DNA of 64,000 nt. Source: a virus. This document shows, piece after piece, positions 4,176-39,373 of the stretch (position 1 is its first letter; every line of letters begins with the position of its first letter). The stretch lies in IMG/VR virus record IMGVR_UViG_3300045988_074874, one strand, 5' to 3'. The position numbers and the translations under genes are program-made. The notes under the pieces were generated by a model. That model did no database searches. It worked only from the letters and a program-made list of their open reading frames with translations, and had not been told where the DNA came from.

Positions 4176-4247
4176 GGCAGGGTAGAGAAGTGGAATCTCA
4201 CAAGACTCATATTCTTGAGAACGGCGGTTCGAATCCGCCTCCTGCAA
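4176..4247 (+). tRNA. tRNA with CAT anticodon (Met/Ile2 type), G1-A72 mismatch
   Basis: GAGA-AGTGGAA-TCTC D-arm, CAAGA-CTCATAT-TCTTG anticodon arm, GGCGG-TTCGAAT-CCGCC T-arm, acceptor GGCAGGG/TCCTGCA. Confidence 0.55.
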
Positions 4248-4532
4248 CTTAATCCGCTTAGAGTTAAGTTGTTTGTATACAGGCGGTCTATGCCTCTGGT
4301 GGATTTACGCATGAGCGTAAACGTACAACTCACTAGGCGTTTGCGTAAAAAACTTTTTAGAGAGATGAGACCACTGGCCGTAAGAAGTGATAGTCGGCAA
4401 TTCTAAAAGAACCATCTAGTTCATGCGTTTTACGATGGAAAGGTTAATGCTTATCTGGATATTTGTGTCCAGTCCGAAAGCATATGAAGTGAAAATCAAC
4501 TCAGTTTTTTTAACTGACCGTGACAAGCGGTA

Positions 4533-4601
4533 CGGAATGTAGCTCAGGTGGGAGAGCGCACTACAAAAGTGAGGTCGCAGGTTCGAATCCTGCCTTTCCG
4601 A
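4533..4601 (+). ncRNA. tRNA-like RNA with truncated/non-canonical anticodon arm (69 nt)
   Basis: Canonical acceptor, D-arm (GCTC-AGGTGGGA-GAGC) and T-arm (GCAGG-TTCGAAT-CCTGC) but only 18 nt where 21-22 are needed, giving a 3-4 bp anticodon stem and a 5-7 nt loop. Confidence 0.4.
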
Positions 4602-7625: not shown

Positions 7626-8210
7626 ATGAAAAAGATACCAACATTATTTGAGCGAGAATTTAAAGACCATAAGGTTGTAAAGGTTCTTCCGAAAGTGCAT
7701 CCGGGCATGGAATGGGTACTTAAAGGAGAAGGTGTTGCAACAGTCAAATACGACGGTTCTTGCTGCGCGATAATTGACGGAGAATATTATAAAAGATATG
7801 ACTGCAAGAAAGGCAAGATACCACCAGAGGGATTTATTCCTTGTTGCAAACCAGATTCCATTACAGGTCACTGGCCGGGATGGGTAAAGGTTGATGAGAA
7901 TAATCCGTCTGATAAGTGGTTTTTGAAAGCGTATAGTCCGATAAAAGGAAATGTAACAATTTATCTAGCTAACGGAACATACGAAGCAATAGGAAAATAT
8001 TTCTGCGGAAATCCGTACAATATGGATTACGATACACTTGTTAAACATGGCGACGAAATCGTTAAAGTTGAAAGAACATTCGAAGGAATCAAGAAATATC
8101 TTTCCGAACACAAGATAGAGGGATTAGTTTTCTGGAAAGACGGAAGCCCACAATGTAAAATCAAGCGTTCAGATTTTGGCTTTGAATGGCCAGTAAAGGG
8201 GAATTTATGA
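7626..8210 (+). CDS. minimal nucleotidyltransferase of the ATP-dependent RNA/DNA ligase superfamily
   Basis: Motif I VKYDGS (Rnl-type KxDGS), motif IV EGLVFW, motif V CKIKRSDF; only 194 aa. Confidence 0.4.
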   Translation: MKKIPTLFEREFKDHKVVKVLPKVHPGMEWVLKGEGVATVKYDGSCCAIIDGEYYKRYDCKKGKIPPEGFIPCCKPDSITGHWPGWVKVDENNPSDKWFLKAYSPIKGNVTIYLANGTYEAIGKYFCGNPYNMDYDTLVKHGDEIVKVERTFEGIKKYLSEHKIEGLVFWKDGSPQCKIKRSDFGFEWPVKGNL

Positions 8211-11672: not shown

Positions 11673-13160
11673 GTGGGAAGAAACAAAAGCAATTTTGTTG
11701 ACCTATGCCAAGGCGATTTTGGCAGAAAAACTGCCTACACTGGCGTAGCTCAAATTACTACCGAAAATGTTGTTCAAGTTCTATCTGATACGATTGGTAC
11801 ACATAATCGAAACAGAATGATGATTAATTATCTTTATCGGTACTACAAAGGCGACCAACCAATCTTATATCGGGAAAAGCTTGTGAGACCGGAAGTAAAT
11901 AATAGAGTTGTCGAAAATCACGCTCTGGAAGTTGTCAAGTTTAAGGCAGGACAAATATATGGAGAACCTATTCAATATGTCTGCAAAAAGAAAAAAGCAG
12001 ATAAAAAGATAAATGAGCAGGTCGACCTGCTGAATGATTATCTGGACGAAGCAAATGCGGATGCCCGAAATATTCAGCTTGGAATATACCAGAGTGCCGT
12101 AGGAACTGCATACAAGGCAATTCTACGAGAAGACGATTGGACAAAAGACCGTGATTTACCACCATTTAGAATTTTTATTCCGTATCCGGGAGATGTTTAT
12201 ATTGTTTATTCCAGAAACACAGGAAAAGCAATGCTATCTGTTCAAATATTGAAAGATGAAGAGAATCAGCAATATTATCTTTGCTATTCTTCAAATCAAT
12301 ATTTCAAGATAAAGAACGGACAAGTAACCGTCAGCGGCATTAATGGCTTTGGCGGAATCCCAATTATCGAGTATCCAAACAACCATGACCGGCTATCTGA
12401 TGTCGAAATTGCAATTACAGCATTTGATGCGATCAACAAGTATCAGTCGGATAGATTAAACGGTGTTGAACAGTTTGTTCAAGCATTTATGAAATTCAAA
12501 AACTGTGAAGTTGACGAGAATGAATTTTTGAAAATGGTCAAGCTAGGAGCAATATCTGTAAAAGATGCTGGAAACGGTGTTCAGTCAGATGTTGACTTGA
12601 TGACTGCGGAATTAAACCAGTCGGAGAGCCAAGTTGCTAAAGACGACATTTACAATAATATGCTGATTGTAGAAGCAATGCCAAACCGCCAGAGCAACAC
12701 CGGTGGTGATACTGGTAATGCTGTATATTTGCGTAATGGATGGGATTTTGCAGAGCGAGATGCCAAACTTGTTGAAGCATTCACAAAAGAAGCCGAAAAA
12801 GCTTCTGTCAGAATTATTCTCAACATCATTCGCAAAACCTCCAATGATGTCAAGATTTCTACCAGAGATTTTGATGTCAAAATCACCAGAAACCCAACAG
12901 ATAACATGCTTGTTAAAGCACAGGCACTTGATTATCTGTTCAAGAATAAAATTCACCCGCTTATTGCATTGATTACTTGTGGATTATTCAGCGATCCGCA
13001 AAAGGTATATGAAATGAGCTTACCATATCTTGGAACTGTTTATCCCGAACTGGCAAACCCAGACGCAGAAATGAAGAAAGCACAAGAATTGATTAAAGAT
13101 TTTAGTCAGAAATCAATTCAAAATCAATCAGCAACAATTTCTTCCACTGGTGAAGAATAG
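11673..13160 (+). CDS. portal protein (SPP1 gp6-like), GTG start
   Basis: 495 aa, immediately after terL; portal-like size and composition. Confidence 0.7.
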   Translation: MGRNKSNFVDLCQGDFGRKTAYTGVAQITTENVVQVLSDTIGTHNRNRMMINYLYRYYKGDQPILYREKLVRPEVNNRVVENHALEVVKFKAGQIYGEPIQYVCKKKKADKKINEQVDLLNDYLDEANADARNIQLGIYQSAVGTAYKAILREDDWTKDRDLPPFRIFIPYPGDVYIVYSRNTGKAMLSVQILKDEENQQYYLCYSSNQYFKIKNGQVTVSGINGFGGIPIIEYPNNHDRLSDVEIAITAFDAINKYQSDRLNGVEQFVQAFMKFKNCEVDENEFLKMVKLGAISVKDAGNGVQSDVDLMTAELNQSESQVAKDDIYNNMLIVEAMPNRQSNTGGDTGNAVYLRNGWDFAERDAKLVEAFTKEAEKASVRIILNIIRKTSNDVKISTRDFDVKITRNPTDNMLVKAQALDYLFKNKIHPLIALITCGLFSDPQKVYEMSLPYLGTVYPELANPDAEMKKAQELIKDFSQKSIQNQSATISSTGEE

Positions 13161-24016: not shown

Positions 24017-24496
24017 ATGGCACGATTAACTACACTTGGTGTGAAATTTTCATATGCCGTTGAAACCGTGAAAGGCACAAAGCCTACCAAATTCACACAG
24101 CTGGAAGAAGCCTCTTCCATCGGCGGTATTTCTCTTGAAACAGAACAGATTGACGTTTCTGCACTGGAAGATTATCTGACACAGTATGCAGCTGGTAGAC
24201 AGGATACTGGTGGTACATGGGAAATTGAATTCATCATGGATCCAGACAAATCTGTTAAACAGATTAAAAAACTGTACGAAGATTCTAAAGCTGCAAAAAC
24301 TACAGGACTGGCAACCTGGTTCCAGGTGTCATTCCCGGATATGTCCGACGCATTCTTTGTTATTGCAGAATGCGGTCGTGAAATTCCAATGCCAGAAATT
24401 GCACAGAACGAAGCAGCAACCATGTCTATTTCTCTTATCATCAATACATATAAGGGACTGGATACCAAAATTGAGCCGACAGCGGCTGCTGAATAA
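24017..24496 (+). CDS. major tail protein (TP901-1-like)
   Basis: 159 aa, strong RBS, followed by two chaperone-sized ORFs and the tape measure gene. Confidence 0.5.
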   Translation: MARLTTLGVKFSYAVETVKGTKPTKFTQLEEASSIGGISLETEQIDVSALEDYLTQYAAGRQDTGGTWEIEFIMDPDKSVKQIKKLYEDSKAAKTTGLATWFQVSFPDMSDAFFVIAECGREIPMPEIAQNEAATMSISLIINTYKGLDTKIEPTAAAE

Positions 24497-24520: not shown

Positions 24521-24934
24521 ATGTTTAGTTTCTCAGTAAATGATAAAACATACAAAGTAAAATTCGGATACGGAGTGCTTACTCAGTCGGACATTCTTAC
24601 ACAGGTGTCTTCTATGGGGGCAATCACCAATCCGAAAGATATGATTAAAATGCTTCCAGAACTGATTCTGGCAGGACTGCAAAGAAAACACAAAGATGAA
24701 TTCGGATACGAAACCGAAGAGGAAAAGAAAGTTGCATATGAAAAGGTATGTGACCTTCTGGACGACTACGAAGATGAATCCACAGAGGAAAATCCTCATA
24801 ATGGATTTACTTTATTCGAAAAAGCGAGTAAGGAGCTTGAGAAGAACGGTTTTTTATCCGGCATGATAAATGCAATGGAGAAGGCAGAGACGAAACTTCC
24901 GAAGACTCCACAGGATCACAAGAAGAAGAGCTGA
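24521..24934 (+). CDS. tail assembly chaperone (gpG-like)
   Basis: Position between major tail protein and tape measure, acidic C-terminus. Confidence 0.4.
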   Translation: MFSFSVNDKTYKVKFGYGVLTQSDILTQVSSMGAITNPKDMIKMLPELILAGLQRKHKDEFGYETEEEKKVAYEKVCDLLDDYEDESTEENPHNGFTLFEKASKELEKNGFLSGMINAMEKAETKLPKTPQDHKKKS

Positions 24935-24975
24935 GCTTTCCTGAGGTAGTCCACAAAAAGCTACTTCCACTTTAT

Positions 24976-25338
24976 TTGTCTATTGGCGTTTCTGAGGAAA
25001 AGTTTTGGGATTCCACACCATATGATTTAGAACCATACATGGAAGCCTACAAATTAAAACAAAAAATGGCTGATTCGCAAGCATGGCAGTTCAACATGTA
25101 CACGATGTGTGCAGTTCAGACTGCGGTTGCAAATGTGCTTATTGGTAAAAAGTCAAAGGCTGAATACCTTAAAGAGCCATTTTCACAAACAGCTGAAAAG
25201 CAAAAGCAAGAGGATGAAGAGAATCTTTCTGAAGCAGAAAAGAAACGGCAACGTGACAGGTTGCTCATGACATTGCAACTCATGCAAGCAAATTTTGAGT
25301 TGAATCATGGTAATAATGACGAGGGCAGGCAGGATTAA
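24976..25338 (+). CDS. tail assembly protein (Gp15-like)
   Basis: Position and size. Confidence 0.4.
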   Translation: MSIGVSEEKFWDSTPYDLEPYMEAYKLKQKMADSQAWQFNMYTMCAVQTAVANVLIGKKSKAEYLKEPFSQTAEKQKQEDEENLSEAEKKRQRDRLLMTLQLMQANFELNHGNNDEGRQD

Positions 25339-25385: not shown

Positions 25386-28052
25386 ATGGCCGATAATACC
25401 ATAGATACCCTCAATATACAAATAGAGAGTAGTTCTTCCAGAGCTGTTCAATCTATCAACGACCTTATTAAAAAGCTAGATGTATTGAATAAATCTTTGA
25501 ATGGCATTAATACTGGTGGGTTGAGAAATTATGCTAAAGAGCTTGGGCGAGTTACCGTTGCTTTCAGTTCTCTTGGAAATGTCAATACGTCTGGCTTAGA
25601 TCGTACCATAGCAAAACTGAATGCTCTCAGCAAAATCAACCTGAGTAATCTGCAAAATCAGAAAATAAGTCTTGACCTCGAAATTAAAGGTGGAGATCAG
25701 ACGCAAAAATTGCAGTACGCCATCGACAAAACCATTCGAGATATAAAAGTTGACACGTCATCATTATCTGAACAACTCATTAAGTCATTTGACCTTAAAG
25801 GTGGAGCGGCGGCTAAAATTCGCGCTCAGATGAATGAGCTGTCCAAAGCTATGGCAAGCTCTTATGACGGAACAGATATGTCTGCAAAACTCAACGATAC
25901 GCTTAACAGCATTGCTAACACTATTATCAAAAGCGGAAGTGTTGTTAAGGGAAATTTAGGATCATATCTTGATGGTGCTGAACAGGAATGGATTGATTTC
26001 TATAATTTCTTTAAGAATAAAAGAATTTATATTTCTGACATGCTCAAAGCAGATGTCGGAAACGGTGAATTCAATAGCTTACTGAAGGAAAATCTGAGCA
26101 ATATTGTGCGTGATGCCGCAAAAGGAATAAATCTCAATGAATCATGGGAAGAATTGGCAGACAGATTTCCTACTCTGATTCCTAAAGATACAATCAATGC
26201 CGCAGATCAGTTGATTGCTGTTCTTGAAAACCTCAAAAAAGTAAGAGATTCTATTAAGCCTGTTTCAATTCAAGACCTTACCGGCAAGGATTCAGCTATA
26301 GCATCAGATAAGGCATGGGGGTTCAGCACAGACGCATACAATCAATTAGCCGAGAGTGTAAAGAAACACATTGAAAGTGCTTTAAGTACCGCAAACGGTG
26401 AACTTCCAATTGATGTAAAAATCAATACAGATAAAATTGTCCTTGATATTCAGAAAGCAATCAATAAAGCGGCAGACCTGAAATACAATACTGTCAATGT
26501 AACTCTGGATGCAGATGTTACGACAGTAAAAGACGCAATCACAAAGAAATTAAAAGATATTGATGCCGGAGAAATGACTGATTTATCTACCAGTATGGCA
26601 AAATTTGCAACCTCTCTCCGCGATCTGGGAAGTGTGAATTTCAAAGGGACTGGATTGAACGCAGTGATTAATTCCATTAATCGTCTTGGAAAATCCGATT
26701 TCAGTCAGTTTGATACAGGGAAATTGGGTGAAATTCTTACTGAGATGCAGAAACTTGATACTATTCCAGACGTTTCTCCGAGCGTTAGCCGGTTCACAAC
26801 CGCTATAGCTAAACTTGCCGACACAGGACAGTATATCGGCAATGTATCAAAGGAACTTCCGAATCTTGCGACAGGTTTAAATAATACGGCTGCTAAATTA
26901 AGCTCTATGAGCGAGGTATCAGCATCCACCAATGCTTTTATTACTTCTCTTGGAAAATTAGCTAGTGCAGGAGATAAAACTGGAAAGACTGCAAGCCAAT
27001 TATCAACTCTTGCACAAGAGGTTTTGAAGTTTTTTGACGCAATGAAAAGCGCACCAGATATCAGCTCAAGCACAATAAGAATGACAGAAGCTCTTGCAGT
27101 ATTAGCATCGTCTGGAAGCAAAGTAGGGCGTGCTACAAATAGCGTTTCGAATTCATTTAACACGCTTTCTTCGTTAGGTTCGAAAGCAAATACTGTAATC
27201 CATGGGTTGACAAATGCTTTTCAAAAATTTGCTTCAAAAGCTATTTCTTTAGGCGGAAAAGCCGTATCTGCAATCGCAGGTATTGGAAATGCATCTTCTG
27301 AAGCCGGCGAAAAAATAAGAAGATTGTCAAATCCTCTGAGTTCGGTAACGAATAAGTTGAGTGCTCTTTATGCCAAAGGTTTCCTCGCAAAAAGAGCATT
27401 AGATGTTCTGACATCGCCAGTAGAATCCGCAATGAACTATGTAGAGACCCTGAATTACTTCAACTCTGCATTCAATCAGGTGGCAGAAGGAATCGACACT
27501 GACGAATGGAAGAAAAGTGGTATAAAATCTGCTGAAGCATATGCAAATTCATTCCAAGAAAGAGCAAAACAGCTTTCGCAGAAACTGACAGGATTCGAAA
27601 TTTCAGATACTGGCGAATTGGCTAGAACCAATACCGCCAGTCTTGGACTTGACCCAGAAAAGACTATGCAGTATCAGGCAACATTTGCGCAGATGGCATC
27701 ATCTATGGGCGATACATCAGAGACTGCATTAAAATTGTCTAATGCACTCACTATGATTGGTGCAGACCTTGCATCTGTAAGAAATATGGACTTTGAAGAT
27801 GTATGGCAGGACATGGCATCTGGTTTGACTGGTATGAGCCGCGCTATGGATAAGTACGGCATTAATATCCGTAATGCCAACATGCAACAGGAACTGTATA
27901 ATCTTGGAATTAATACCAGCATATCGAATTTGTCTCAGGCAGATAAAACGATTCTGAGAACGATTATATTGCTGAACAACTCTAAGTATGCGTGGGCTGA
28001 TTTATCAAACACGATAGACGATGGTTTTTGCGAACTATCATTTGTCGCCTAA
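25386..28052 (+). CDS. tape measure protein, N-terminal part (exon 1; last ~9 codons probably intron read-through)
   Basis: Long Ala/Ser/Leu/Lys-rich helical protein; ends ...YAWADLSNTIDD just before the canonical PANQ-x-R motif that resumes at 29276. Confidence 0.55.
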   Translation: MADNTIDTLNIQIESSSSRAVQSINDLIKKLDVLNKSLNGINTGGLRNYAKELGRVTVAFSSLGNVNTSGLDRTIAKLNALSKINLSNLQNQKISLDLEIKGGDQTQKLQYAIDKTIRDIKVDTSSLSEQLIKSFDLKGGAAAKIRAQMNELSKAMASSYDGTDMSAKLNDTLNSIANTIIKSGSVVKGNLGSYLDGAEQEWIDFYNFFKNKRIYISDMLKADVGNGEFNSLLKENLSNIVRDAAKGINLNESWEELADRFPTLIPKDTINAADQLIAVLENLKKVRDSIKPVSIQDLTGKDSAIASDKAWGFSTDAYNQLAESVKKHIESALSTANGELPIDVKINTDKIVLDIQKAINKAADLKYNTVNVTLDADVTTVKDAITKKLKDIDAGEMTDLSTSMAKFATSLRDLGSVNFKGTGLNAVINSINRLGKSDFSQFDTGKLGEILTEMQKLDTIPDVSPSVSRFTTAIAKLADTGQYIGNVSKELPNLATGLNNTAAKLSSMSEVSASTNAFITSLGKLASAGDKTGKTASQLSTLAQEVLKFFDAMKSAPDISSSTIRMTEALAVLASSGSKVGRATNSVSNSFNTLSSLGSKANTVIHGLTNAFQKFASKAISLGGKAVSAIAGIGNASSEAGEKIRRLSNPLSSVTNKLSALYAKGFLAKRALDVLTSPVESAMNYVETLNYFNSAFNQVAEGIDTDEWKKSGIKSAEAYANSFQERAKQLSQKLTGFEISDTGELARTNTASLGLDPEKTMQYQATFAQMASSMGDTSETALKLSNALTMIGADLASVRNMDFEDVWQDMASGLTGMSRAMDKYGINIRNANMQQELYNLGINTSISNLSQADKTILRTIILLNNSKYAWADLSNTIDDGFCELSFVA

Positions 28053-29272
28053 CATAGTAATGTGTTAGTGAAAATCGAGTAAAATCGGTAAAACCTGTAC
28101 TGAATACTGTATTTGTGTTATAATAAATACAGGTGATATGATTGAAAAAAGAATTTGTAATTTATACAGCAACTAATAAAATCAACGGGAAAATATACGT
28201 TGGAAAAACTTATAATTTTGAAAAAAGAAGAAAAGAGCATTTTTATGACATTAATGATGATATTCCTTTCCATAGAGCTTTAAAGAAATATGGAATTGAA
28301 AATTTTGAATGGAAAATCATTGATTGTGCCAAAACCGATGATGAAATAAAGGAAAAAGAAATATACTGGATAAAAAAGCTTAATACATGTATTCATTCAA
28401 AAAACTCAAATGGGTACAATATAACATTGGGTGGCGAAGGCGGTGTTTCGTGGAATTCACTTCCGGTTATTCAGTATGACTTAGATGGGAATTATATTCA
28501 AGAATTTCTAAGCTGCCAACATGCTTCAGTATGTACTGGAATAGGGCGCCATAATATAGGAGATTGTGCCAATGGAATTACTAAACAATCTGGTGGTTAT
28601 CAATGGAGATACAAAGTCGAAAATAAAATTGACTCCATAGAAGCGTATCAAAGGGCAGAATCACCTCGCAAAAGAAGTATCATACAGCTAGATCTTGATG
28701 GAAATTTTATAAACACTTTCAATTCCGTAACAGAAGCAAGCAAAAAGATTGGAATAGGAAGAGCTAATATATCTTCTTGTTTAACTGGTAAAATAAAAAG
28801 AAGTGGTGGTTATCAATGGATTTACGCAGATAACTATGACGAAAATCAAAATTATAAGTTTAAAGGAATATCAGAGGGTAATGGAATATTCCAATTAGAT
28901 CAGAACAAGAAAATAATAAATCATTTTAATAATTGTTCTGAAGCAGCGAGGTTTCTAGGAGAAGAAACAAAAGTACACAAACAAATTCATAAAGCAATAA
29001 ACACCGGCCACAAATGTAGAGGATTCTACTGGTGCAAGTGTGATGATTATATCAATATTCAGCATGGCAATACCGAGGTAATCGCATAGATAGCGAAAGG
29101 CTATGCGACACCGTAGAGCGTAGGAGATGAATAAATATAATTCTCCCAAGAGTGCTCGACAACCATAAGACGTAGAAATACGTCTTATTTTTATGGTTGA
29201 AAATGTACGCCGACCTTATGGGAAACCATAAGAAGTAGAGGATAAAAAGCCTTTACGATAACAAAGTGAAAT
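28023..29272 (+). mobile_element. candidate group I intron carrying a GIY-YIG homing endonuclease, splitting the tape measure gene (boundaries approximate)
   Basis: The conserved TMP motif ...TIDD | (N)QPANQIRMLQSNFASLGRTIG is restored across a 1.25 kb interruption; ~300 nt of non-ORF sequence with hairpins flanks the HEG ORF. Confidence 0.35.
28142..29089 (+). CDS. GIY-YIG homing endonuclease with repeated GGYQW DNA-binding modules (TTG start)
   Basis: FVIYTATNKINGKIYVGKTYNFEKRRKEH is the GIY-YIG motif; three NUMOD-like repeats (SGGYQWRYK, SGGYQWIY); embedded in the TMP gene. Confidence 0.7.
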   Translation: MKKEFVIYTATNKINGKIYVGKTYNFEKRRKEHFYDINDDIPFHRALKKYGIENFEWKIIDCAKTDDEIKEKEIYWIKKLNTCIHSKNSNGYNITLGGEGGVSWNSLPVIQYDLDGNYIQEFLSCQHASVCTGIGRHNIGDCANGITKQSGGYQWRYKVENKIDSIEAYQRAESPRKRSIIQLDLDGNFINTFNSVTEASKKIGIGRANISSCLTGKIKRSGGYQWIYADNYDENQNYKFKGISEGNGIFQLDQNKKIINHFNNCSEAARFLGEETKVHKQIHKAINTGHKCRGFYWCKCDDYINIQHGNTEVIA

Positions 29273-29293
29273 CAACCGGCAAATCAGATTCGC

Positions 29294-32200
29294 ATGCTTC
29301 AATCTAACTTTGCATCCCTTGGTAGAACAATAGGTTCCTTGTTCATTCCTATACTGCAAACAGTACTTCCATATATCAATGCAATTGTAATCGCATTACA
29401 AAGAATGTTTGCTTATATTGCAAAATTGCTTGGAATCAAACTGTCAAACTTTGTATCATCTACTGGTGGTATTTCTGTAAATACCGGAGATATTGCAGAT
29501 AATATGGATAATGCCAGTGGTGCAATTGACAATGCCAATACCAGTGCAAAAAAACTCGAAAAAACATTGTCAGTTCTTTCATTTGATGAACTGAATCAGC
29601 TTAATGACAATTCTGATTCTGGTAGTACAAGTAATCCATCTTCTGGCTCTGGCGGTGGCGCATCACATCTTCCGGCGCTTGATGCTGCTTTAGATGATGC
29701 TTTATCTGCATATCAAAAAGCATGGGACGAAGCTTTTAAAAAGATGTCCAATAGGGCAAATGAAATGGCAGATGCCATTGTAAATGCCTTTAAGAGAAAA
29801 GACTGGAAAGGTCTTGGAAAAATCATGGCTGATGGCATCAACTGGGGGATGCAAAAGCTTTATGATTTCATTAACTGGAATAACGTAGGTCCTTACATCA
29901 CTAAATTCACCAGTGCGTTCACCCAGACTTTCAACAGCCTTGTTGATAATATCAACTGGGATTTGATGGGACGTACCGTTGGAGCTGGTATTAATACAAT
30001 AGTTAATACAGCCAATCAGTTACTTGAGGGAACGAATTTCAAAAACCTTGGTAAGAAATTTGCAGAAGGTATTACAGGCTTAGTTCGTGAAGTTGATTGG
30101 ACTAATTTTGGAAACATGCTTGGAAACAATTTTATGAAAGCATGGGATGTGCTTACGGGATTTGTCGAAAACCTTCCATATAGTGAAATTGGTCAGTCTG
30201 TAGCAACTGGATTAAATGGAATCTTTGAGAAAGTAGATTTTGGAGAAATAGCACATGCGCTTGCAACAGGTTTAAACGGAGCTTTTGATTCGTTAGATGC
30301 ATTTACAGAAACATTCGACTGGAATGAACTGGTTGATAATATTACAAATGGTATTGTGACATTCATGCAGGAATTTGACTGGAAAGAGAATGGACAGAAA
30401 CTTGAAAATTTTATCAATCATCTCTTAACATCATTAATTGACATCGCAGAAGGTGTTGATTGGGAAGCGTTTGGACACAATGTAGGCGTATTCCTCAGTG
30501 AAATTGACTGGGGAAAACATCTTGCACAGTTACTTACGGTTATCGGAGACGTTCTTGGTGGAATCTGGGAAGGACTTGGAACAACATCTGCTGGCACATT
30601 TGTTCAGGCAATGGCTGTTTTTGCTATTGGTGACAAATTAATGCCACTCGTTGACACCATTACCAAATTCTTTACAGGCGATACTGTTTTTGGAAATCTT
30701 TCTAAAGCTGTACAAGGTATGCTGAGTCCCGCAATCACAGAAGCTGTAGCGACAACTATTCCAGCTCTTGGTACTTCCTTGGGTGCGCTTGTGGCAACTG
30801 GTGGTGGAATTGCTCTTGCAGTAGGTGGTGCAGTATTACTTACCAAGAAATTAGCAGGACTTTTTGAGACCATGCAAGGTGGTAATGGAATGACTACACA
30901 GTATGGTGGTTATCTCCATGATTACGCAACACAGCTGACTGATGTAGCGAATCTTACAAACGATCAATCGGAAGCGTTGTGGCAGCTGATTGAGAAGGAT
31001 GAAGAACTTGGAAAAACTCACGATGAAATGTACTCTGATATGGTTGAAAAGCTTAAAGAATACGGAGTGTCCACAGATCAGGCAAAAACCGCTCTTGAGC
31101 AGTATGGCGCACAGGCAGGTGTATCGGCTGAATTTGTTGAAGGCATGACCGATCAAATTTCTGCTCTTGGAGAAGGTGTGTCTGAAGCTGCAAGTAAATT
31201 TGATACATCAAAAATAAGTGTCGATAATTTGAAAGATACTCTGTACGCATTGAGCCTTTCTTCTACAGAATTCGGAGGTAATTATACGACGGCATGGAAT
31301 GCAATAAGCGAAGTACCTTATAGCAACACAAAAGATGCATTAGACGCGGTCTACACTTCTCTCAAAAACGCAGGTGTTCCACTTGACGAACTTGATAAGA
31401 AGTTAAGAGAAGATTTTCCAGAAGCAACTGTAGCTACTAAATCAGCAGTAGACAAGAATATTGTTGGAGCGCAGCAGACTATTTCAACATCAGTTGGACA
31501 AGCATCTAAAGATACAAAGACAGCCACAAATGAAATGGCAAAAAATGCCACAGATGATTTCTCGGAAATTCAGAAACAAGCCGATACTTACATGAAAGGC
31601 ATGGAAAGCACAACTACTAGCTCATGGGGCAACTCTTCCAGAGAAGCTACATTGAAAGCCAGGGAAATGAAGAATGCCGTAAGCACAGAACTCGGGAACA
31701 TGGACAAATCTGTAACAAGCCATTTCCAAAGTCAGTACAACATTGCTTATAAGAAATGGGAGAATATCGGAAGAGATATTTCTTCCTACATTTCAAAGGA
31801 CATGAACAACAAAATTGGCAGTTCCTTGAACAGTGTTGTAGATACAATCAAGAGCAAGTTTGCCGGGTTGTATAATGTCGGCAAAAATGCAATGCAAGAA
31901 CTGTCAAACGGCATGAAATCTGTCCATATCAGTACACCGCATATGTGGATGAACATGAACGCTTCCACAAGCGGAAACCACTATTCCTACAACTGGGATT
32001 CTGGTGTAAACTGGTACAAGAGAGGCGGTCTGTTTGATTCCGCATCTGTTATCGGTGTCGGTGAAGCCGGAAAAGAAGCTGTATTACCGCTTGAAAACCA
32101 AAAGGCTATGAAGGATATAGCCGACAGCATTATGTCTGGCTATGACGGCAATATGGGTCTCAGCAAGGAAGACATTATGGAAGCTGTTGAGCGTGGCGTA

Positions 32201-32353
32201 GTTACTGCTTTGATGAACAATGGTGGCTTTGGTGGTTCTTCACCAGAGTACATCATGAACAGCATAAAAGTGAACGAGCGTGAACTGGCACGAATCGTCA
32301 CAAAAGCGCAAAATAATACAGATTACCGTATGAATCCGTCACCTGTGTATTGA
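29294..32353 (+). CDS. tape measure protein, C-terminal part (exon 2 probably begins near 29270)
   Basis: In-frame upstream codons read NQPANQIRM, the canonical TMP motif; TM helices then a long repetitive region. Confidence 0.55.
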   Translation: MLQSNFASLGRTIGSLFIPILQTVLPYINAIVIALQRMFAYIAKLLGIKLSNFVSSTGGISVNTGDIADNMDNASGAIDNANTSAKKLEKTLSVLSFDELNQLNDNSDSGSTSNPSSGSGGGASHLPALDAALDDALSAYQKAWDEAFKKMSNRANEMADAIVNAFKRKDWKGLGKIMADGINWGMQKLYDFINWNNVGPYITKFTSAFTQTFNSLVDNINWDLMGRTVGAGINTIVNTANQLLEGTNFKNLGKKFAEGITGLVREVDWTNFGNMLGNNFMKAWDVLTGFVENLPYSEIGQSVATGLNGIFEKVDFGEIAHALATGLNGAFDSLDAFTETFDWNELVDNITNGIVTFMQEFDWKENGQKLENFINHLLTSLIDIAEGVDWEAFGHNVGVFLSEIDWGKHLAQLLTVIGDVLGGIWEGLGTTSAGTFVQAMAVFAIGDKLMPLVDTITKFFTGDTVFGNLSKAVQGMLSPAITEAVATTIPALGTSLGALVATGGGIALAVGGAVLLTKKLAGLFETMQGGNGMTTQYGGYLHDYATQLTDVANLTNDQSEALWQLIEKDEELGKTHDEMYSDMVEKLKEYGVSTDQAKTALEQYGAQAGVSAEFVEGMTDQISALGEGVSEAASKFDTSKISVDNLKDTLYALSLSSTEFGGNYTTAWNAISEVPYSNTKDALDAVYTSLKNAGVPLDELDKKLREDFPEATVATKSAVDKNIVGAQQTISTSVGQASKDTKTATNEMAKNATDDFSEIQKQADTYMKGMESTTTSSWGNSSREATLKAREMKNAVSTELGNMDKSVTSHFQSQYNIAYKKWENIGRDISSYISKDMNNKIGSSLNSVVDTIKSKFAGLYNVGKNAMQELSNGMKSVHISTPHMWMNMNASTSGNHYSYNWDSGVNWYKRGGLFDSASVIGVGEAGKEAVLPLENQKAMKDIADSIMSGYDGNMGLSKEDIMEAVERGVVTALMNNGGFGGSSPEYIMNSIKVNERELARIVTKAQNNTDYRMNPSPVY

Positions 32354-32464: not shown

Positions 32465-32578
32465 TTTGGTAAAACCAACAGGCTAGACCGATCATCGAAA
32501 AGCGGAAATGCCTTGCCGCCTGCCTGTTGATTTACATACATTTCAAGGCATCTTATATACGAAAGGCAGGTATTTTCT

Positions 32579-33784
32579 ATGGAAAGAATTCCTATTAGTA
32601 AGAAAATTAGATTTGAAGTATTTAAAAGAGATCAATTTACATGTCAGTACTGTGGACGCATGGCTCCAGATGTAATATTAGAAGTTGACCATATCGATCC
32701 AGTGGCAGAAGGCGGCACCAATGATATTATGAATTTAATCACATCATGCCGGGATTGTAATAGAGGGAAAGGCAAAAATAAACTTTCCGATAAAAAAATT
32801 ATATCATTGCAACAACAATCTTTAAAAGAATTAGCTGAAAAAAGAGAGCAGCTCGAAATGGTTGCTGAATGGAAGAAAGAATTGTTGAATTACAACACCC
32901 AAGCAATTAATATGCTTTCAGATTATTTTGAGCAATTAACTGGTTCTAGTGTGAACGAACATGGCAGAAATAATATTAATGTATGGTTAAAACGTTTTGG
33001 AGTAGAAAAAATAATGACTGCCATGGAAAATTCTGTAAAAACATATTGTAAAGAGTTTTCATATGAAGAAATTGAAAAAGCTTTTAAAAAGATTCCTGGA
33101 GTTTGTATAAATTGTGAAAAAGGAAATAGTTCGCAAATTTATTATTTTAATTACATAAAGAAAGTCCTTAACTCCAAGAATATAAAATTTGATTTGAAGT
33201 TATTGAAATATTATGTCGATACTTATTTGGTTTCCGATGATGCTTTCGAAGAAGAGAAAAAAACGAAAAGATATATTAAAATGTTCGAAAATAGAAAATT
33301 TGATATTAGCATAAAAAAAGTACAAGACAGAATTATGCAAAATTGTTATATACCTATGGGTGACATTGACTGTAAGAAAACGATTGAAAATCTTAAATAT
33401 GGTTTAAATACGAATCATAAAGGATATTTTTTCTCGGACAGGTATTCGCTTCAGAACAGAATTGATTTAAAACCATACGTTAAAAATTTTATTGAATTTA
33501 TTGAAGAATTTTACAAAGAATATTACAACACATTTAACGAACCTCATCCCAAATTAACCATCGAACAATGTTTAAAATTATTGAACAGATATGCTTGGAA
33601 TGCGTATTGGGGCTTAGCGACCAAAGAAACTTATCGTAATATGTCTTTTGTTCTTTCGATTGGAAAAGAGATGAATTCGAAAGTTCGAATAATGGAAGCC
33701 ATGTCCGCTTGCGGCACGGGGATATGCCGGGAAAAATATGAAGAATATGAATCAGAAAAGGGTACACATAAATTTGAATGTTGA
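32579..33784 (+). CDS. HNH endonuclease (free-standing, 401 aa)
   Basis: N-terminal CQYCG...DHIDPVAEGGTNDIMNLITSCRDCNRGKG HNH motif. Confidence 0.65.
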   Translation: MERIPISKKIRFEVFKRDQFTCQYCGRMAPDVILEVDHIDPVAEGGTNDIMNLITSCRDCNRGKGKNKLSDKKIISLQQQSLKELAEKREQLEMVAEWKKELLNYNTQAINMLSDYFEQLTGSSVNEHGRNNINVWLKRFGVEKIMTAMENSVKTYCKEFSYEEIEKAFKKIPGVCINCEKGNSSQIYYFNYIKKVLNSKNIKFDLKLLKYYVDTYLVSDDAFEEEKKTKRYIKMFENRKFDISIKKVQDRIMQNCYIPMGDIDCKKTIENLKYGLNTNHKGYFFSDRYSLQNRIDLKPYVKNFIEFIEEFYKEYYNTFNEPHPKLTIEQCLKLLNRYAWNAYWGLATKETYRNMSFVLSIGKEMNSKVRIMEAMSACGTGICREKYEEYESEKGTHKFEC

Positions 33785-35750: not shown

Positions 35751-36149
35751 ATGTCGATTATATTTGTAAAACCAATGGGTGCTCCCGAAAACCAAAAACA
35801 GGGTTTTTCGCCTTCTGGATTTTCATGGGGGCTTCAAGACATATCAGCCCCAAAGTCTGGAAGATCTGATGATACAGACATGCACAAAAACAGAATTGGA
35901 CAAGCCCGAAAAATTGGTTTGTCTTGGAATGGGCCGGATAAAGATGAAACAAGTCGCATATTAAAAGCATTTAATCCTGAATATGTGGATATGTATTACG
36001 AAGACGATATGGACAATAAGTGGGAATGGCGAACATTTTACGTTGGAGATAGAAGTGCGATGCGTAAATGTTGGTGGATTGGAAATAAAAGGCATGAAAC
36101 GGTGTCTTTTGATATTATCGAAAAACATGGAAGGAAAGGCGCGTTTTGA
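35751..36149 (+). CDS. hypothetical tail protein (small, Dit position)
   Basis: ORF coupled to the large fibre gene. Confidence 0.4.
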   Translation: MSIIFVKPMGAPENQKQGFSPSGFSWGLQDISAPKSGRSDDTDMHKNRIGQARKIGLSWNGPDKDETSRILKAFNPEYVDMYYEDDMDNKWEWRTFYVGDRSAMRKCWWIGNKRHETVSFDIIEKHGRKGAF

Positions 36150-39100
36150 GAAATTTATCATCTAACTGGAAAGAAAAAGTTAAGAACGGAATGGACGTGC
36201 AGTACCTCAAGTATGCAGATATCACACTTACAGACGGAACTGTACTCAATCTGACCAGTGCCGATCTGTGGCAAAACGGATTAAGCTTTGAAGATTCAGT
36301 GTCTAGTGATAGTACTTTTGATATCGGTTCTGCAATCGTTAATGTGTTGGATTTAAGTATTAATAACTTTAATGGCGAATACTCTGGTTATGATTTTGAA
36401 GGCGCAGAAGTAGTTACATATGTTGGATTGGAACTGGACAATGAAACTACTGAGAAAATCCGCATTTGTACAATGACAGTTGTTGAACAGCCGGAAGATG
36501 AAACAGTAACCATCGACCTGACGTGCGAAGATAACATGCGGAAATTTGATCGTAATTATTCTGACAGTAAGCTGAAATATCCGGCAACCAGAGGGCAAAT
36601 TATCAGGGATGCCTGCGAAGTATGTGGAGTAACCTTACAGACAACGTCTTTTGACAGAGATGATTATATTGTACAGATACGTCCTGACAATGAGGCTTTG
36701 ACGTTCCGACAGGTATTACAATGGGTAGCTCAGATCGGATGCCAGTGGTTAAGATGTGATGAATATGGCAGACTTTGCGTAAAGTGGTACGATACAGAAA
36801 AAACAGATGCACAGGAAATTGATACGACTTATAGTTTTACGCCACAACACACAGATGTTGTAATTACAGGTATTCAAGTAACTGAATACAGTGATTCTTC
36901 AAATGAAGAACCAGAAAGCTATATGGTTGGTACGCAGGGATATGTACTGGCCATTTCTGATAACAAATTAATCAGAAAAGGCGATGGACAAACGATTGCT
37001 TCGATGATTGCCGAGAAATGCGTTGGAATGATATTTAGACCATTTGAATCTCAATGTCCTACAGATGTAGCCTTGGAAGCCGGAGATGCAATTACAATAG
37101 AAGATCGAAATGGAAATCTGTATAACACCTACCTCACGACTACCACTTTGCAACCGGGAGCTGGACAAAAGATTGCTTGCAATGCAAAAAGCGCAGCAAA
37201 AAACAGCACTGTGCGGTACGGACAACTTACTCAGGTGTATGTTGAAGCTCGAAAACTTGTCAAAAAAGAACAGACTGCAAGAGAACGTGCTATACAAAAT
37301 CTTGAAGAATCTCTGTCTATTGGAAGCGGACTGTTCGCAACTTACGTTCAGCAAGAAGACGGAAGTACAATTTCGTATTTCCATGACAAGGCAAAGCTCG
37401 AAGATTCTACGAATGTAATCAAGATCACGTCAGAAGCGGTAGGCGTGTCAAATGATGGTGGTAAAACATATCCGTTTGGTTTCCAATTAACCGGAACCAT
37501 GATAGCAAAATTGTTATACGCAGAGGGAATTAATGCGGATTTTATCAACGCCGGTGCGCTTACTATTAAGGACGGGAAAGGAAATATAATCTTTTCCGTC
37601 AACATGGACACAAATTCTGTGTACATCAACCCGGAATATCTGATGATTGGAGATGTAAGTCTGTCTGACAAAATCAAAGAATTGGATGCAAATGTTGCCG
37701 CAGCTAAGAACATGACCATGACACTTTCAAATGAGTATCAGGCGATTTCTACTGATGAGAACGGAAACATTCCCGGAGAGTTTCCACAGGTGCAGACCAC
37801 TGCACAGGTAATGTACGGAACGATGGACGTAACGGACGATTGCAGTTATACGATCACGGAATCTGAAAATGTGACCGGAATCTGGGATAAAACTACGCAC
37901 ACTTATACTGTTAGCGAAGTTACGGCAGACAATGTATGGGTTGACATCAAAGCAGTGTATCTGAATACCATCACCATAACCAAAAGATTCAGCGTATCTA
38001 AGCAGAAATCTGGTACTCCCGGAAGAACTTATGTGTTAGAATCATCTACTACAATTTTGAAGAAAGAAAGTGAAAACAGCATAACACCGAATGTTGTGAT
38101 ATTTAGCGCGTACTACCGTGATGGCAAGAACACAGGTAGAACAGATTATGCCGGAAGATTTGTTATTGAGGAAACGTCCGATGGAAAGACATGGAAGACA
38201 GCTTATTCGAGTGTAGCAGATGAGACCAGCGTTAACTACTATGCAGATTACGTTTTTGCGGATTCTGATGGAGTATTGGTTGCAGACAGCGACGGTTCAC
38301 TGATTGGTGTCCGTTCAAAAGATATCGTAGGATTACGGTGTAGCTTGTACGCATCGGGCGGAACCACGAATCTGATTGACACAGTCAAACTTGATGTTAT
38401 CACAGAAGTCACGGCTCTGACACAGGAAGATATTTTGAAGCTCCTGACCAATGATGGAGAATGGAAAGGTATTTACAGGGGCGCGGATGGGGAACTGTAC
38501 ATTTCATTCAGTGCCGCAATGGGCGGTTTGCTGAAGCTGGGAGGCAAAAACAATGGAAATGGTGTTCTGAAAGTGTTTGATGAATCTGGAAGATTAATTA
38601 ATATTTTGGAAAATAGAGGATTTATGTATGGCTATGACCTAAATGATAAAAACTTGGAATTTACACAAGTCAATCAGAACGGTTGTCAACTATATATATG
38701 GGATGAAAAAAATAAAGAAATCATCAGACAATTAGATGTTGGAATAAATTGGCGTAAAAGCAGCGACGGCAATAAATATGTTGTTGAAATCAATGCTGAT
38801 AAAGAATTTACAATAATCCTAAATGATGGTATTGATTCGGATACGAATCCGTATAGTCCATTTTCTTGTGATTACAATTACAGCACAATTTACAACAAAT
38901 TCAGATGTTATAAGGGAGAGGTAACACTTGACAGCCTTACATCGAAAGCCACAAAGCTCCTAAACGTCAAGCAGAATACGAATGCTTACAATCTGTTGCT
39001 TATGACAGATGGAACTGTAACCAGAGCAGCGTCTTCGTCCAAACGCTATAAGGATATTGGAGACGCCATTTCGGAAATGGATATTGATAATTGGTACAAA

Positions 39101-39373
39101 ATAGAACCAGTCTGGGCGAAATACAAAGACGGTTATCTTGCAGAAGGCGACGAAAACGAAGGACGCTATCTGCCTATGTTCATTGCGGAGGATGTAGAAG
39201 AACATTTTCCACAGGCAGCTACACATGTGAACAATCAGATAGAAGACTGGAACTATCGTATGATGATCCCGGCAATGTTCGCAATGATTAAACAGCAAAA
39301 ATCCGAAATAGACAACCTAAAAGAGGATATCAAAGAACTGAGAAAAATTATAAAAGAAATGAGAGGTGAATAA
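36146..39373 (+). CDS. Tal-like tail tip / fibre protein with C-terminal intramolecular chaperone (peptidase S74-like) domain
   Basis: N-terminal region resembles phage minor structural protein N-terminal (Tal) domain; C-terminus ...MMIPAMFAMIKQQKSEIDNLKEDIKELRKIIKEM matches the S74 chaperone pattern. Confidence 0.55.
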   Translation: MRNLSSNWKEKVKNGMDVQYLKYADITLTDGTVLNLTSADLWQNGLSFEDSVSSDSTFDIGSAIVNVLDLSINNFNGEYSGYDFEGAEVVTYVGLELDNETTEKIRICTMTVVEQPEDETVTIDLTCEDNMRKFDRNYSDSKLKYPATRGQIIRDACEVCGVTLQTTSFDRDDYIVQIRPDNEALTFRQVLQWVAQIGCQWLRCDEYGRLCVKWYDTEKTDAQEIDTTYSFTPQHTDVVITGIQVTEYSDSSNEEPESYMVGTQGYVLAISDNKLIRKGDGQTIASMIAEKCVGMIFRPFESQCPTDVALEAGDAITIEDRNGNLYNTYLTTTTLQPGAGQKIACNAKSAAKNSTVRYGQLTQVYVEARKLVKKEQTARERAIQNLEESLSIGSGLFATYVQQEDGSTISYFHDKAKLEDSTNVIKITSEAVGVSNDGGKTYPFGFQLTGTMIAKLLYAEGINADFINAGALTIKDGKGNIIFSVNMDTNSVYINPEYLMIGDVSLSDKIKELDANVAAAKNMTMTLSNEYQAISTDENGNIPGEFPQVQTTAQVMYGTMDVTDDCSYTITESENVTGIWDKTTHTYTVSEVTADNVWVDIKAVYLNTITITKRFSVSKQKSGTPGRTYVLESSTTILKKESENSITPNVVIFSAYYRDGKNTGRTDYAGRFVIEETSDGKTWKTAYSSVADETSVNYYADYVFADSDGVLVADSDGSLIGVRSKDIVGLRCSLYASGGTTNLIDTVKLDVITEVTALTQEDILKLLTNDGEWKGIYRGADGELYISFSAAMGGLLKLGGKNNGNGVLKVFDESGRLINILENRGFMYGYDLNDKNLEFTQVNQNGCQLYIWDEKNKEIIRQLDVGINWRKSSDGNKYVVEINADKEFTIILNDGIDSDTNPYSPFSCDYNYSTIYNKFRCYKGEVTLDSLTSKATKLLNVKQNTNAYNLLLMTDGTVTRAASSSKRYKDIGDAISEMDIDNWYKIEPVWAKYKDGYLAEGDENEGRYLPMFIAEDVEEHFPQAATHVNNQIEDWNYRMMIPAMFAMIKQQKSEIDNLKEDIKELRKIIKEMRGE

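What the first reader, a model, noticed from the sequence alone, without database searches (positions are those of the whole stretch)
28023..29272. Tape-measure gene split by a ~1.25-kb insertion carrying a GIY-YIG homing endonuclease, probably a group I intron
The upstream tape-measure ORF ends ...YAWADLSNTIDD plus 9 unrelated codons. In the frame of the downstream ORF, the codons just after an in-frame stop read NQPANQIRMLQSNFASLGRTIG. Splicing near 28022/29270 would restore the canonical tape-measure motif (..TIes-PANQlR..). The insertion comprises a 315-aa GIY-YIG endonuclease with three GGYQW repeats, plus about 300 nt of hairpin-rich non-coding flank. That layout fits a group I intron with a homing endonuclease gene in a peripheral loop. 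The last putative exon base is U, as group I P1 pairing requires.
Basis: partly seen in the sequence, partly recalled or inferred. Interest (0 to 1): 0.6.

Follow-up and report, generated by a model that had tools for sequence, protein, structure and literature searches.

The report
Group I intron splitting tape-measure gene
A phage tail tape-measure gene is interrupted by a 1,253-base self-splicing (group I) intron that carries its own homing endonuclease gene; this is a well-supported but ordinary example of a kind of mobile element already known in phage tail genes.

Summary
ORF 25386-28052 and ORF 29294-32353 are two halves of one tape-measure protein (TMP). They are separated by an insert that carries an intact I-TevI-like GIY-YIG/NUMOD1 homing endonuclease (28142-29089).

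The insert is a group I intron, but its boundaries are 28016-29268, not 28023-29272. Exon 1 ends at U28015, which pairs with G28044 in P1. The intron ends at G29268. Splicing there gives a 1,904-aa ORF reading ..NTI|NQPANQ.., exactly as in uninterrupted relatives.

The two non-coding flanks belong to one RNA fold that spans the ORF: P1-P2-P3-P4-P5(ORF in L5)-P6-P7-P7.1-P3'-P8-P7'-P9-P9.1. In 23 non-redundant relatives, 92.9% of pair cells are paired (33-44% when partners are slid) and 41 of 60 pairs show compensatory changes. P3 and P7 form the group I pseudoknot. A compact ORF-less relative matches Rfam RF00028 end to end (E = 5e-9).

Rfam misses the window copy because the ORF splits the core. 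The same intron sits at the same TMP site in at least four other phages.

Group I introns with HEGs in TMP genes have been described since 2008, and splicing was shown in phage ICP1 in 2023. This is therefore a new member of a known kind. Splicing and homing here are inferred, not shown.

The parts
25386..28015 (+). TMP exon 1 (877 codons + 2 nt; ends ..AAC ACG AU|)
   Evidence: ORF listing; PHROG TMP profiles; junction fixed by intact homologs and the splice test.
28016..29268 (+). Group I intron, 1,253 nt (IA-type core of ~305 nt plus a HEG in L5)
28012..28047 (+). P1 stem-loop. Exon CGAU 28012-15 pairs with GUCG 28044-47 (U28015·G28044 at the splice site). Intron AGA 28016-18 pairs with UUU 28041-43. 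Extension 28020-27/28032-39. AUUU 28040-43 can alternatively pair with exon 2 AAAU 29269-72 (P10).
   Evidence: RNAfold; pair table; same P1 geometry in relatives.
28050..28067 (+). P2 hairpin, 7 bp, GUAA tetraloop. The in-frame stop of exon-1 read-through (UAA 28050-52) lies at its base.
   Evidence: 7/7 alignment columns covary.
28075..28079 (+). P3 5' strand UCGAG (pairs with 29155-29159 across the ORF)
   Evidence: 5/5 pairs with double changes, 100% paired in 23 sequences.
28085..28089 (+). P4 5' strand UCGGU (pairs with 29072-29076), preceded by J3/4 UAAAA
   Evidence: 100% paired, one UA->AU swap; Rfam alignment of the homolog assigns the same helix.
28094..28106 (+). P5/P5a 5' strand (CC..CUGAAUA); pairs with 29056-29067 (UAUUCAG..GG) and closes the loop that holds the ORF
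28116..28136 (+). Candidate expression signals for the HEG: extended -10-like TGtTATAAT (28116-28124) and RBS AGGTGA (28131-28136)
   Evidence: Read from the sequence. Similar TGnTATAAT/TTGACT..TATAAT plus RBS lie upstream of the HEGs in relatives. The simple -35/-10 scan did not list it, so this is weak.
28142..29089 (+). Homing endonuclease gene, 315 aa, GIY-YIG (I-TevI-like) + NUMOD1 repeats + NUMOD-like HTH, inserted in L5. Its 3' end overlaps P5', P4' and the 5' strand of P6.
29056..29076 (+). P5a'/P5' (29056-29067) and P4' ACCGA (29072-29076)
29084..29106 (+). P6 hairpin GCAUAG/CUAUGC (contains the HEG stop codon UAG 29087-89)
   Evidence: 5/6 pairs covary, 94% paired.
29107..29122 (+). 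J6/7 (GACACCGUAGA) and P7 5' strand GCGUA 29118-22
   Evidence: P7 100% paired, GC<->AU swap in 8/23 sequences.
29123..29146 (+). P7.1 hairpin (GGAGA/UCUCC) between P7 and P3', a subgroup-IA feature
   Evidence: 5/5 pairs covary, 100% paired.
29155..29159 (+). P3 3' strand CUCGA
29160..29199 (+). P8, long hairpin with GAAA loop. Its inner part plus the U-run resembles an intrinsic terminator (29165-29188).
29200..29210 (+). J8/7 AAAAUG and P7 3' strand UACGC 29206-10
   Evidence: Nearly invariant across the family; aligns to the Rfam J8/7-P7' consensus in the homolog.
29215..29232 (+). P9 hairpin, 7 bp, GAAA tetraloop
29236..29255 (+). P9.1-like hairpin UAGAGG/CCUUUA (invariant in the family; used as the search motif)
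29268..29268 (+). Terminal guanosine (omega-G), last intron base
29269..32353 (+). TMP exon 2 (starts A|AAU CAA CCG GCA AAU CAG = (I)NQPANQ). No Shine-Dalgarno sequence lies before the internal ATG 29294.

Best explanation
Window 28016-29268 is a mobile group I intron of the IA type that interrupts a single tape-measure gene.

Splicing (inferred). The TMP message is transcribed through the intron. The ~305 nt of ribozyme, split into 126 nt before and 179 nt after the endonuclease ORF, folds into P1-P9.1 with the ORF looped out of P5. An exogenous guanosine bound at P7 attacks after U28015, which is held by the U·G pair with G28044 in P1. The terminal G29268 then takes the G site, exon 2 is aligned by P10 (AAAU 29269-72 with AUUU 28040-43), and the exons are ligated. 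The spliced mRNA encodes a 1,904-aa TMP reading ..NTI-NQPANQ...

Homing (inferred). The intron-encoded I-TevI-like GIY-YIG enzyme is translated from its own ribosome-binding site. It is expected to cut intron-less TMP alleles of co-infecting relatives near the conserved TI-NQPANQ coding sequence, so that repair copies the intron in.

Shown here: the split gene, the exact in-frame junction, the conserved and covarying group I fold that spans the ORF, the intact endonuclease, and orthologous insertions at the same site. Inferred: catalysis of splicing, endonuclease specificity, and homing.
For: (1) One gene in two pieces. PHROG TMP profiles continue from ORF1 to ORF2 with an 8-position gap. Five uninterrupted homologs, including Dulem virus 39 (58% identity), read ..TI-NQPANQ.. 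or ..TL-EQPANQ.. across the break.

(2) Exact junction. Only 28015|29269 reproduces that sequence. It gives a 1,904-aa ORF with no stops, a U at the exon end and a G at the intron end. In a blind test using only P1 pairing and the terminal G, 1 of 8 combinations gave an open frame, and it is this one.

(3) The flanks belong to a family. The 3' flank is 70-96% identical to segments in 135 phage records. These lie in split TMP, large terminase and DNA polymerase genes, usually just after an endonuclease ORF. More than 120 further loci were found in IMG/VR, and the 5' flank is found by a profile in 55 of them.

(4) Structure. A MAFFT alignment of 23 non-redundant ORF-deleted introns scored against my helix model gives 92.9% paired cells (33-44% when slid), 41/60 pairs with double changes, and covariation 0.535 versus 0.161 shuffled, with 0/500 shuffles as high. 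P3 spans the ORF (5/5 covarying, 100% paired) and crosses P7. All core pairs but one (a U-U in P5) are intact in the window. RNAfold of the ORF-deleted window intron recovers every nested helix, z = -7.7.

(5) Link to the curated family. The compact ORF-less member in Arcanobacterium phage TPWB06 (71% identical to the window core) hits Rfam RF00028 over model positions 1-253, 39.9 bits, E 4.9e-9, with the same helix assignment.

(6) Same site elsewhere. L048 and L105 are identical at the junction. L065, L089 and MT839765 are diverged TMPs with the intron at ..ACGAU|..G|A xxx xxx CCA GCN AAC CAG. L065 and L089 carry orthologous GIY-YIG genes; the MT839765 contig is cut before its ORF.

(7) No ribosome-binding site precedes ORF2's ATG, so exon 2 needs splicing to be expressed.
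Against: No RNA data: splicing and homing are not shown. Rfam RF00028 does not hit the window itself at the gathering score or at E<=10, either on the whole insert or on the 3' half alone. The homolog's hit (39.9 bits) is below the family's gathering score of 50. P7 and P4 vary little, so their support rests on one covarying position each. The terminator-like hairpin in P8 could in principle stop transcription before exon 2. The subgroup (IA1 or IA2) was not determined with subgroup-specific models.
Confidence: 0.92

Rival explanations
1. A free-standing homing endonuclease gene has split the tape measure into two separately translated genes ('genes in pieces', as in the Aeromonas phage Aeh1 nrdA split by mobE). 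The two polypeptides assemble without any RNA splicing.
For: Two long ORFs with their own start codons are called mechanically. Rfam gives no group I hit on the window. Free-standing HEGs next to TMP genes are common (PMC10448857), and the window has one right after the TMP (32579-33784).
Against: Both flanks of the HEG form a conserved, covarying group I fold that spans the ORF. The same flanks occur without any ORF as ~250-nt inserts that keep the host gene in frame. ORF2's ATG is an internal Met with no Shine-Dalgarno sequence. Removing exactly 28016-29268 restores the family sequence to the residue.
Confidence: 0.03
2. It is a group I intron by descent but no longer splices (a decayed element in a defective phage), so the tape measure is a pseudogene.
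For: Nothing here measures activity. Degenerate introns and HEGs are frequent (PMC2504315).
Against: 59 of the 60 modelled core pairs (P2-P9.1), and also P1 and P10, are intact in the window. The J8/7, J6/7 and P7 positions that are invariant in the family are unchanged. The HEG ORF is full length with the GIY-YIG catalytic domain recognisable. Both exons are open for 877 and 1,027 codons. Identical copies occur in two independent IMG/VR contigs.
Confidence: 0.05
3. The insert is another kind of intervening element (a group II intron, an intein, or an IS element).
For: None beyond the fact of an insertion in a coding sequence.
Against: There is no reverse transcriptase or maturase ORF and no domain V/VI. 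The insert is not in frame with the host protein and carries stops, so it cannot be an intein. There are no terminal inverted repeats or transposase. The fold is the group I P3-P7 pseudoknot.
Confidence: 0.005

Closest known systems
Group I introns in the tape-measure genes of Bacillus cereus-group prophages (TMP-IVS1/2/3; Tourasse & Kolstø 2008, PMC2504315)
   Same: Same host gene type, an IA-class ribozyme, and some copies carry GIY-YIG or HNH HEGs. The same RNA family is involved: the abundant IMG/VR class with exon 2 ACAATGTATGAAGATCAAG matches Bacillus phage vB_BtS_BMBtp13 'tape measure | HNH nuclease | tape measure' and carries the window's P9.1 motif.
   Different: Different TMP family and insertion site (here just before the PANQ motif), a different phage lineage (gut-type phage, ~40% GC), and a different HEG. 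Those introns were also only predicted, not tested for splicing.
Vibrio phage ICP1 tape-measure intron with an HNH HEG (Barth et al. 2023, PMC10448857)
   Same: A TMP gene interrupted by a HEG-bearing intervening sequence. Splicing into a full-length TMP transcript was shown there by RNA-seq and RT-PCR.
   Different: An HNH enzyme rather than GIY-YIG, a Gram-negative host, and no sequence relationship tested or seen here.
Phage T4 td intron with I-TevI
   Same: A phage subgroup-IA intron carrying a GIY-YIG endonuclease with the same catalytic domain (PDB 1MK0/1LN0, E 3e-9), looped out of the P4-P6 domain. From established knowledge, I-TevI drives homing by cutting the intron-less allele upstream of the insertion site.
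   Different: From my own knowledge, the td ORF is in P6a; here it is in L5. The DNA-binding region is built from NUMOD1 repeats rather than the I-TevI zinc finger, minor-groove helix and HTH. The host gene is structural, not nucleotide metabolism.
Rfam RF00028 (Intron_gpI)
   Same: The compact homolog aligns over the full model with matching P1, P2, P3, P4, P5, P8, J8/7 and P9.
   Different: The score is below gathering (39.9 vs 50). The window copy is not detected because the 950-nt ORF splits the core. The P6 and P7.1 region fits the model poorly.

Membership tests
Group I intron | 5' splice site follows a U that forms a U·G wobble with the internal guide sequence in P1 | tested here: met
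   U28015·G28044 lies within a 15-bp P1 stem-loop. The same geometry is found in relatives.
Group I intron | Intron ends in a guanosine (omega-G) | tested here: met
   G29268. The position is fixed independently by protein homology and is the only open-frame solution.
Group I intron | Conserved core with P3-P7 pseudoknot, P4-P6 domain and P8 in the canonical order | tested here: met
   Order P3-P4-P5-P5'-P4'-P6-P7-(P7.1)-P3'-P8-P7'-P9. 92.9% paired and 41/60 pairs covary. P3 crosses P7.
Group I intron | Significant match to a curated group I covariance model | tested here: inconclusive
   Window: no RF00028 hit. Compact homolog L001:2812-3039: RF00028 at 39.9 bits, E 4.9e-9, full length, but below the gathering score of 50. 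The ORF-deleted window sequence could not be submitted to cmscan.
Group I intron | Exon ligation restores an uninterrupted, conserved host gene | tested here: met
   A 1,904-aa ORF reading ..NTINQPANQ.., identical in register to Dulem virus 39 and four other TMPs.
Group I intron | Guanosine-dependent self-splicing | not testable with these tools
   Needs RNA work.
Group I intron, subgroup IA | Extra hairpin(s) P7.1/P7.2 between P7 and P3' | tested here: met
   One covarying hairpin, 29123-29146, lies between P7 and P3'. Only one hairpin is evident, so IA1 versus IA2 is left open. Published relatives are called IA1 or IA2.
GIY-YIG homing endonuclease (I-TevI-like) | N-terminal GIY-YIG catalytic domain | tested here: met
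   Pfam PF01541 8e-10; phmmer to the I-TevI catalytic domain 3e-9; phrog_314 'homing endonuclease' 3e-31.
GIY-YIG homing endonuclease (I-TevI-like) | C-terminal sequence-tolerant DNA-binding modules | tested here: met
   NUMOD1 x2 (2e-24) and I-HmuI NUMOD-like (2e-13).
GIY-YIG homing endonuclease (I-TevI-like) | Cleaves the intron-less allele and promotes homing | not testable with these tools
   Indirect only: orthologous HEG plus intron at the same site in diverged TMPs (L065, L089), and intron-less alleles with a conserved target, AAAYCARCCGGCAAATCAGAT.

The most novel reading that the evidence does not exclude
The endonuclease ORF ends inside the catalytic core. Its last ~12 codons are P5', P4' and the 5' strand of P6, and its stop codon lies in P6. 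Ribosomes translating the HEG must therefore melt the P4-P6 domain. ORF-bearing members of the family also carry a terminator-like extension of P8 that the ORF-less members lack. Together these features could make endonuclease production and tape-measure splicing mutually exclusive fates of a transcript, so the intron would act as a built-in switch rather than a passive passenger. Unrelated HEG families (GIY-YIG, HNH) in this scaffold all end in ..NTEV.., read from the same ribozyme segment. This suggests repeated capture of ORFs at one permissive point.
Probability: 0.25. Interest if true: 0.4.

Novelty: new member of a known kind. Interest (0 to 1): 0.22.

Why it matters
The practical value is for annotation. 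This phage's tape measure is one 1,904-aa protein, which from the usual ~0.15 nm per residue rule implies a tail of roughly 280 nm. It is not two 'minor tail' genes plus a stray nuclease. The same mis-annotation is visible in public records: phiCP13O gp23/gp24, S-CoN_Ph2 terminase fragments, MMB025 DNA polymerase fragments, and TPWB06.

The work also shows that a single IA-type ribozyme scaffold is very widely spread among phages of Firmicutes and gut phages. It occurs in TMP, terminase and DNA polymerase genes, with at least three endonuclease families inserted in the same loop. Standard Rfam scans miss it.

It opens no new biological question. Mobile group I introns in phage tail genes are established.

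Tried and rejected
(1) Rfam at the gathering score on the whole window, and at E<=10 on 27900-29400 and on the 3' half alone, gave no group I hit. This was shown to be uninformative: the compact homolog is also missed in a multi-locus scan but is found when scanned alone.

(2) blastn of the 5' flank against phages gave no match. A profile HMM was needed to find it.

(3) My first hand model put the 5' splice site at U28027, paired with G32 at the top of the hairpin, with G29268 at the 3' end. It is in frame (..DDGL-NQ..) but adds four residues absent from every intact homolog, so I rejected it. The alternative 28022/29278 (..DD|ANQ..) was also rejected.

(4) An early assignment of GAGCG/UGCUC as P4 and of the GAAA hairpin 29215-32 as P8 was dropped once the family alignment showed the real P3', P7 and P8.

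(5) A link to the classic S. thermophilus phage lysin intron is not supported. Those phages carry the motif at 1.4-2.9 kb, in the packaging region and unannotated.

(6) Whether the reverse transcriptase ORF at 54197 belongs to a diversity-generating retroelement: no template/variable repeat was found in 34-58 kb.

(7) The -35/-10 scan did not pick up the extended -10-like TGtTATAAT upstream of the HEG, so the internal promoter remains a weak inference.


Full report
**What is there.** The region holds three + strand ORFs. The first is 25386-28052 (888 aa). The second is 28142-29089 (315 aa, TTG start, preceded by AGGTGA). The third is 29294-32353 (1,019 aa). The outer two are contiguous parts of one tape-measure family. 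ORF1 matches phrog_28918 positions 1-194 and ORF2 matches positions 203-914. For phrog_1535 ('tail length tape measure protein') the ranges are 230-355 and 364-1140. The middle ORF has a GIY-YIG domain, two NUMOD1 repeats and an I-HmuI NUMOD-like domain. It matches the I-TevI catalytic domain in the PDB (1MK0/1LN0, E 3e-9). Only two of the three 'GGYQW' repeats are exact.

**Where the junction is.** A fused query found uninterrupted relatives by tblastn. The best is Dulem virus 39, at 56% identity in tblastn (58% in the alignment) across the break in a single piece. In an alignment with five intact TMPs, the break region reads ..DLADTI-NQPANQMR.. or ..ARTL-EQPANQLR... The PAN residues are invariant. 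The window can reproduce this only if exon 1 ends at U28015 (AAC ACG AU|) and exon 2 starts at A29269 (|A AAU CAA CCG). That removes 1,253 nt and gives a 1,904-aa ORF with no stop. The exon then ends in U and the intron ends in G, as group I chemistry requires.

**The flanks are a mobile RNA, not junk.** The 3' flank (29087-29270) is 70-96% identical at the DNA level to segments in 135 phage records. The hosts include Staphylococcus, Clostridium perfringens, Clostridioides, Streptococcus, Alicyclobacillus, Arcanobacterium, Bacillus and crAss-like phages. Where annotation exists, the segment lies inside a split gene and usually just after an endonuclease ORF:
- DNA polymerase | endonuclease | element | DNA polymerase in MMB025
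- Terminase | homing endonuclease | element | terminase in S-CoN_Ph2
- Tape measure gp23 | ~1 kb | gp24 in phiCP13O
- Tape measure | HNH | tape measure in Bacillus phage BMBtp13

The sequence immediately after the shared ..AAnUG differs from locus to locus, so the exons differ. The 5' flank had no blastn match. It does share a clear layout with relatives: guide sequence, covarying P2 hairpin, AAAAUCGRG, then AAAAUCGGU. A profile HMM found it upstream of the 3' element in 55 loci. At least seven of these are compact ~250-300-nt versions without an ORF.

**The fold.** The compact copy in Arcanobacterium phage TPWB06 served as a guide for laying out the core: P1, P2, P3, J3/4, P4, P5 (with the ORF in its terminal loop), P4', P6, J6/7, P7, P7.1, P3', P8, J8/7, P7', P9 and a P9.1-like hairpin, ending at the terminal G.

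I made 23 non-redundant ORF-deleted constructs and aligned them with MAFFT, which uses sequence only. I then scored my helices on that alignment:
- 92.9% of 1,358 pair cells form standard pairs, against 33-44% when the 3' partners are slid by 1-3 columns.
- 41 of 60 pairs show changes on both sides.
- The covariation score is 0.535, against 0.161 for shuffles.
- 0 of 500 shuffles reach any of the five measures.
- P3 joins 28075-79 to 29155-59 across the endonuclease gene. It is 100% paired, with compensatory changes at all five positions. The window's own UCGAG/CUCGA differs from the commoner UCGGG/UCCGA.
- P7 is 100% paired, with a G-C to A-U swap in eight sequences.
- P3 and P7 cross, forming the group I pseudoknot.

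In the window, every modelled pair but one (a U-U in P5) is a standard pair. RNAfold used none of this information. On the ORF-deleted window intron it recovers P1, P2, P3, P4, P5/P5a, P6, P7.1, P8, P9 and P9.1, at -99.7 kcal/mol and z = -7.7.

**P1 and P10.** Exon CGAU 28012-15 pairs with GUCG 28044-47, which places U28015 opposite G28044. The helix continues into the intron (AGA/UUU) and into an 8-bp extension. The same AUUU 28040-43 can instead pair with the first four bases of exon 2, the usual P10 arrangement. As a blind test, I predicted 5' sites from P1 pairing alone and 3' sites from terminal G's alone. I then asked which combinations leave 480 nt open across the junction. For the window, 1 of 8 does, and it is 28015|29269. 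Many relatives give the analogous ..GAU|AAA.. or ..GGU|AAA.. solution.

**Link to the curated family.** Rfam RF00028 does not hit the window, and it missed all relatives in a pooled scan. Scanned alone, the compact TPWB06 intron matches RF00028 over model positions 1-253 at 39.9 bits and E 4.9e-9. The P1, P2, P3, P4, P5, P8, J8/7 and P9 assignments are the same as mine. The window core is 71% identical to that copy over 264 aligned positions. A 2025 survey notes the same blind spot of Rfam and GISSD for phage introns split by a nuclease loop (PMC11878797).

**Same site, other phages.** IMG/VR loci L048 and L105 are identical to the window at the junction. L065, L089 and GenBank MT839765 are diverged TMPs with the intron at the same codon phase, just before (x)(x)PANQ. 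L065 and L089 carry clear orthologs of the window's GIY-YIG enzyme; MT839765 is cut by its contig end before the ORF. The closest intron-less allele, Dulem virus 39, keeps a similar target sequence. Other members of the RNA family carry different GIY-YIG enzymes, HNH enzymes or a LAGLIDADG-like protein in the same loop. This is the familiar picture of endonuclease genes invading an intron scaffold independently.

**Mechanism.** The mechanism that follows is the textbook one, given under the best explanation. The steps shown here are structural and comparative. Splicing, endonuclease specificity and homing are inferred. ORF2's ATG has no ribosome-binding site, which argues that exon 2 is expressed only after splicing.

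**Known or new.** Tourasse & Kolstø (2008) described IA1/IA2 group I introns at three sites in the TMP genes of Bacillus cereus-group prophages. Some carry GIY-YIG or HNH genes (PMC2504315). A Bacillus phage TMP intron belongs to the same RNA family as the window's. Barth et al. (2023) call the TMP a 'frequently interrupted gene' and show spliced TMP transcripts in phage ICP1 (PMC10448857). Spliced introns in mycobacteriophage tail genes are also documented (PMC3706429). This is therefore a new, unannotated member of a known kind, at a TMP site I did not find described.

**Context.** The window is a phage genome with nearly all genes on the + strand:
- Large terminase: 9396-11132
- Portal: 11673-13160
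- Major tail protein: 24017-24496
- Chaperones: 24521-25338
- The split TMP
- HNH gene: 32579-33784
- Tail protein: 36146-39373

GC falls from ~0.40 to 0.35 over the intron. Only one copy of this intron family is present in the window.

Noticed in passing
window 32476-33784: A 401-aa HNH endonuclease ORF (32579-33784) sits directly after the TMP stop codon. It is preceded by an Rfam int-alpA RNA hit above the gathering score (32476-32548, 45.4 bits vs 35.8). GC drops to 0.34 here. It looks like a second, free-standing homing-type nuclease next to the same gene.
   Followed up: partly
window 29165-29192 (inside intron P8): The inner part of P8 plus the following U-run scores as an intrinsic terminator. 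ORF-bearing relatives (L107, L065; BE20/ROSA types) have the same or an analogous hairpin plus T-run, whereas compact ORF-less copies have a short P8. It may end endonuclease transcripts, or it may be only a stabilising extension.
   Followed up: partly
window 29069-29089; relatives L089, L113, L110, L044, L053: Unrelated endonucleases (GIY-YIG and HNH) in the L5 loop of different family members end in ..NTEV.. or a close variant (NTEI in L044, NTEE in L053). The conserved ribozyme segment AAUACCGAGGUAA (P4' and its flanks) is read as their last codons, and the stop codon lies in P6.
   Followed up: partly
window 29087-29160 versus 29190-29270; loci L013 (cr131_1), cr7_1, cr118_1: crAss-like phages share only the P6-P7-P7.1 module (82-88% identity). 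Many other phages share only the J8/7-P9-P9.1 module. This suggests modular or chimeric intron cores.
   Followed up: no
about 60 Streptococcus thermophilus phage genomes, positions 1.4-2.9 kb (e.g. NC_007019.1 2348-2401): The P9-P9.1 segment of this intron family occurs in the packaging-gene region with no annotated feature under it. These are probably unannotated introns.
   Followed up: no
L001 (Arcanobacterium phage TPWB06) 2822-3066: A compact ORF-less intron of this family joins the annotated 'hypothetical protein' (1616-2860) in frame to the annotated tape measure (3073-). The public TMP annotation is therefore truncated at its N-terminus.
   Followed up: yes
window 54197-55216: A reverse-transcriptase ORF (phrog_1423, 3e-87). 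No template/variable-type direct repeat was found in 34-58 kb, so its system is unidentified.
   Followed up: partly
window 46572-47142: A tandem array of a 27-nt unit (about 20 copies, up to 96% identical) lies inside ORF 46297-47274, giving a 9-residue protein repeat.
   Followed up: no
window 3271-4601 and 7626-8210: Four tRNA genes are clustered near the start of the window, and there is an RNA ligase-like ORF (phrog_14301, 4e-55).
   Followed up: no
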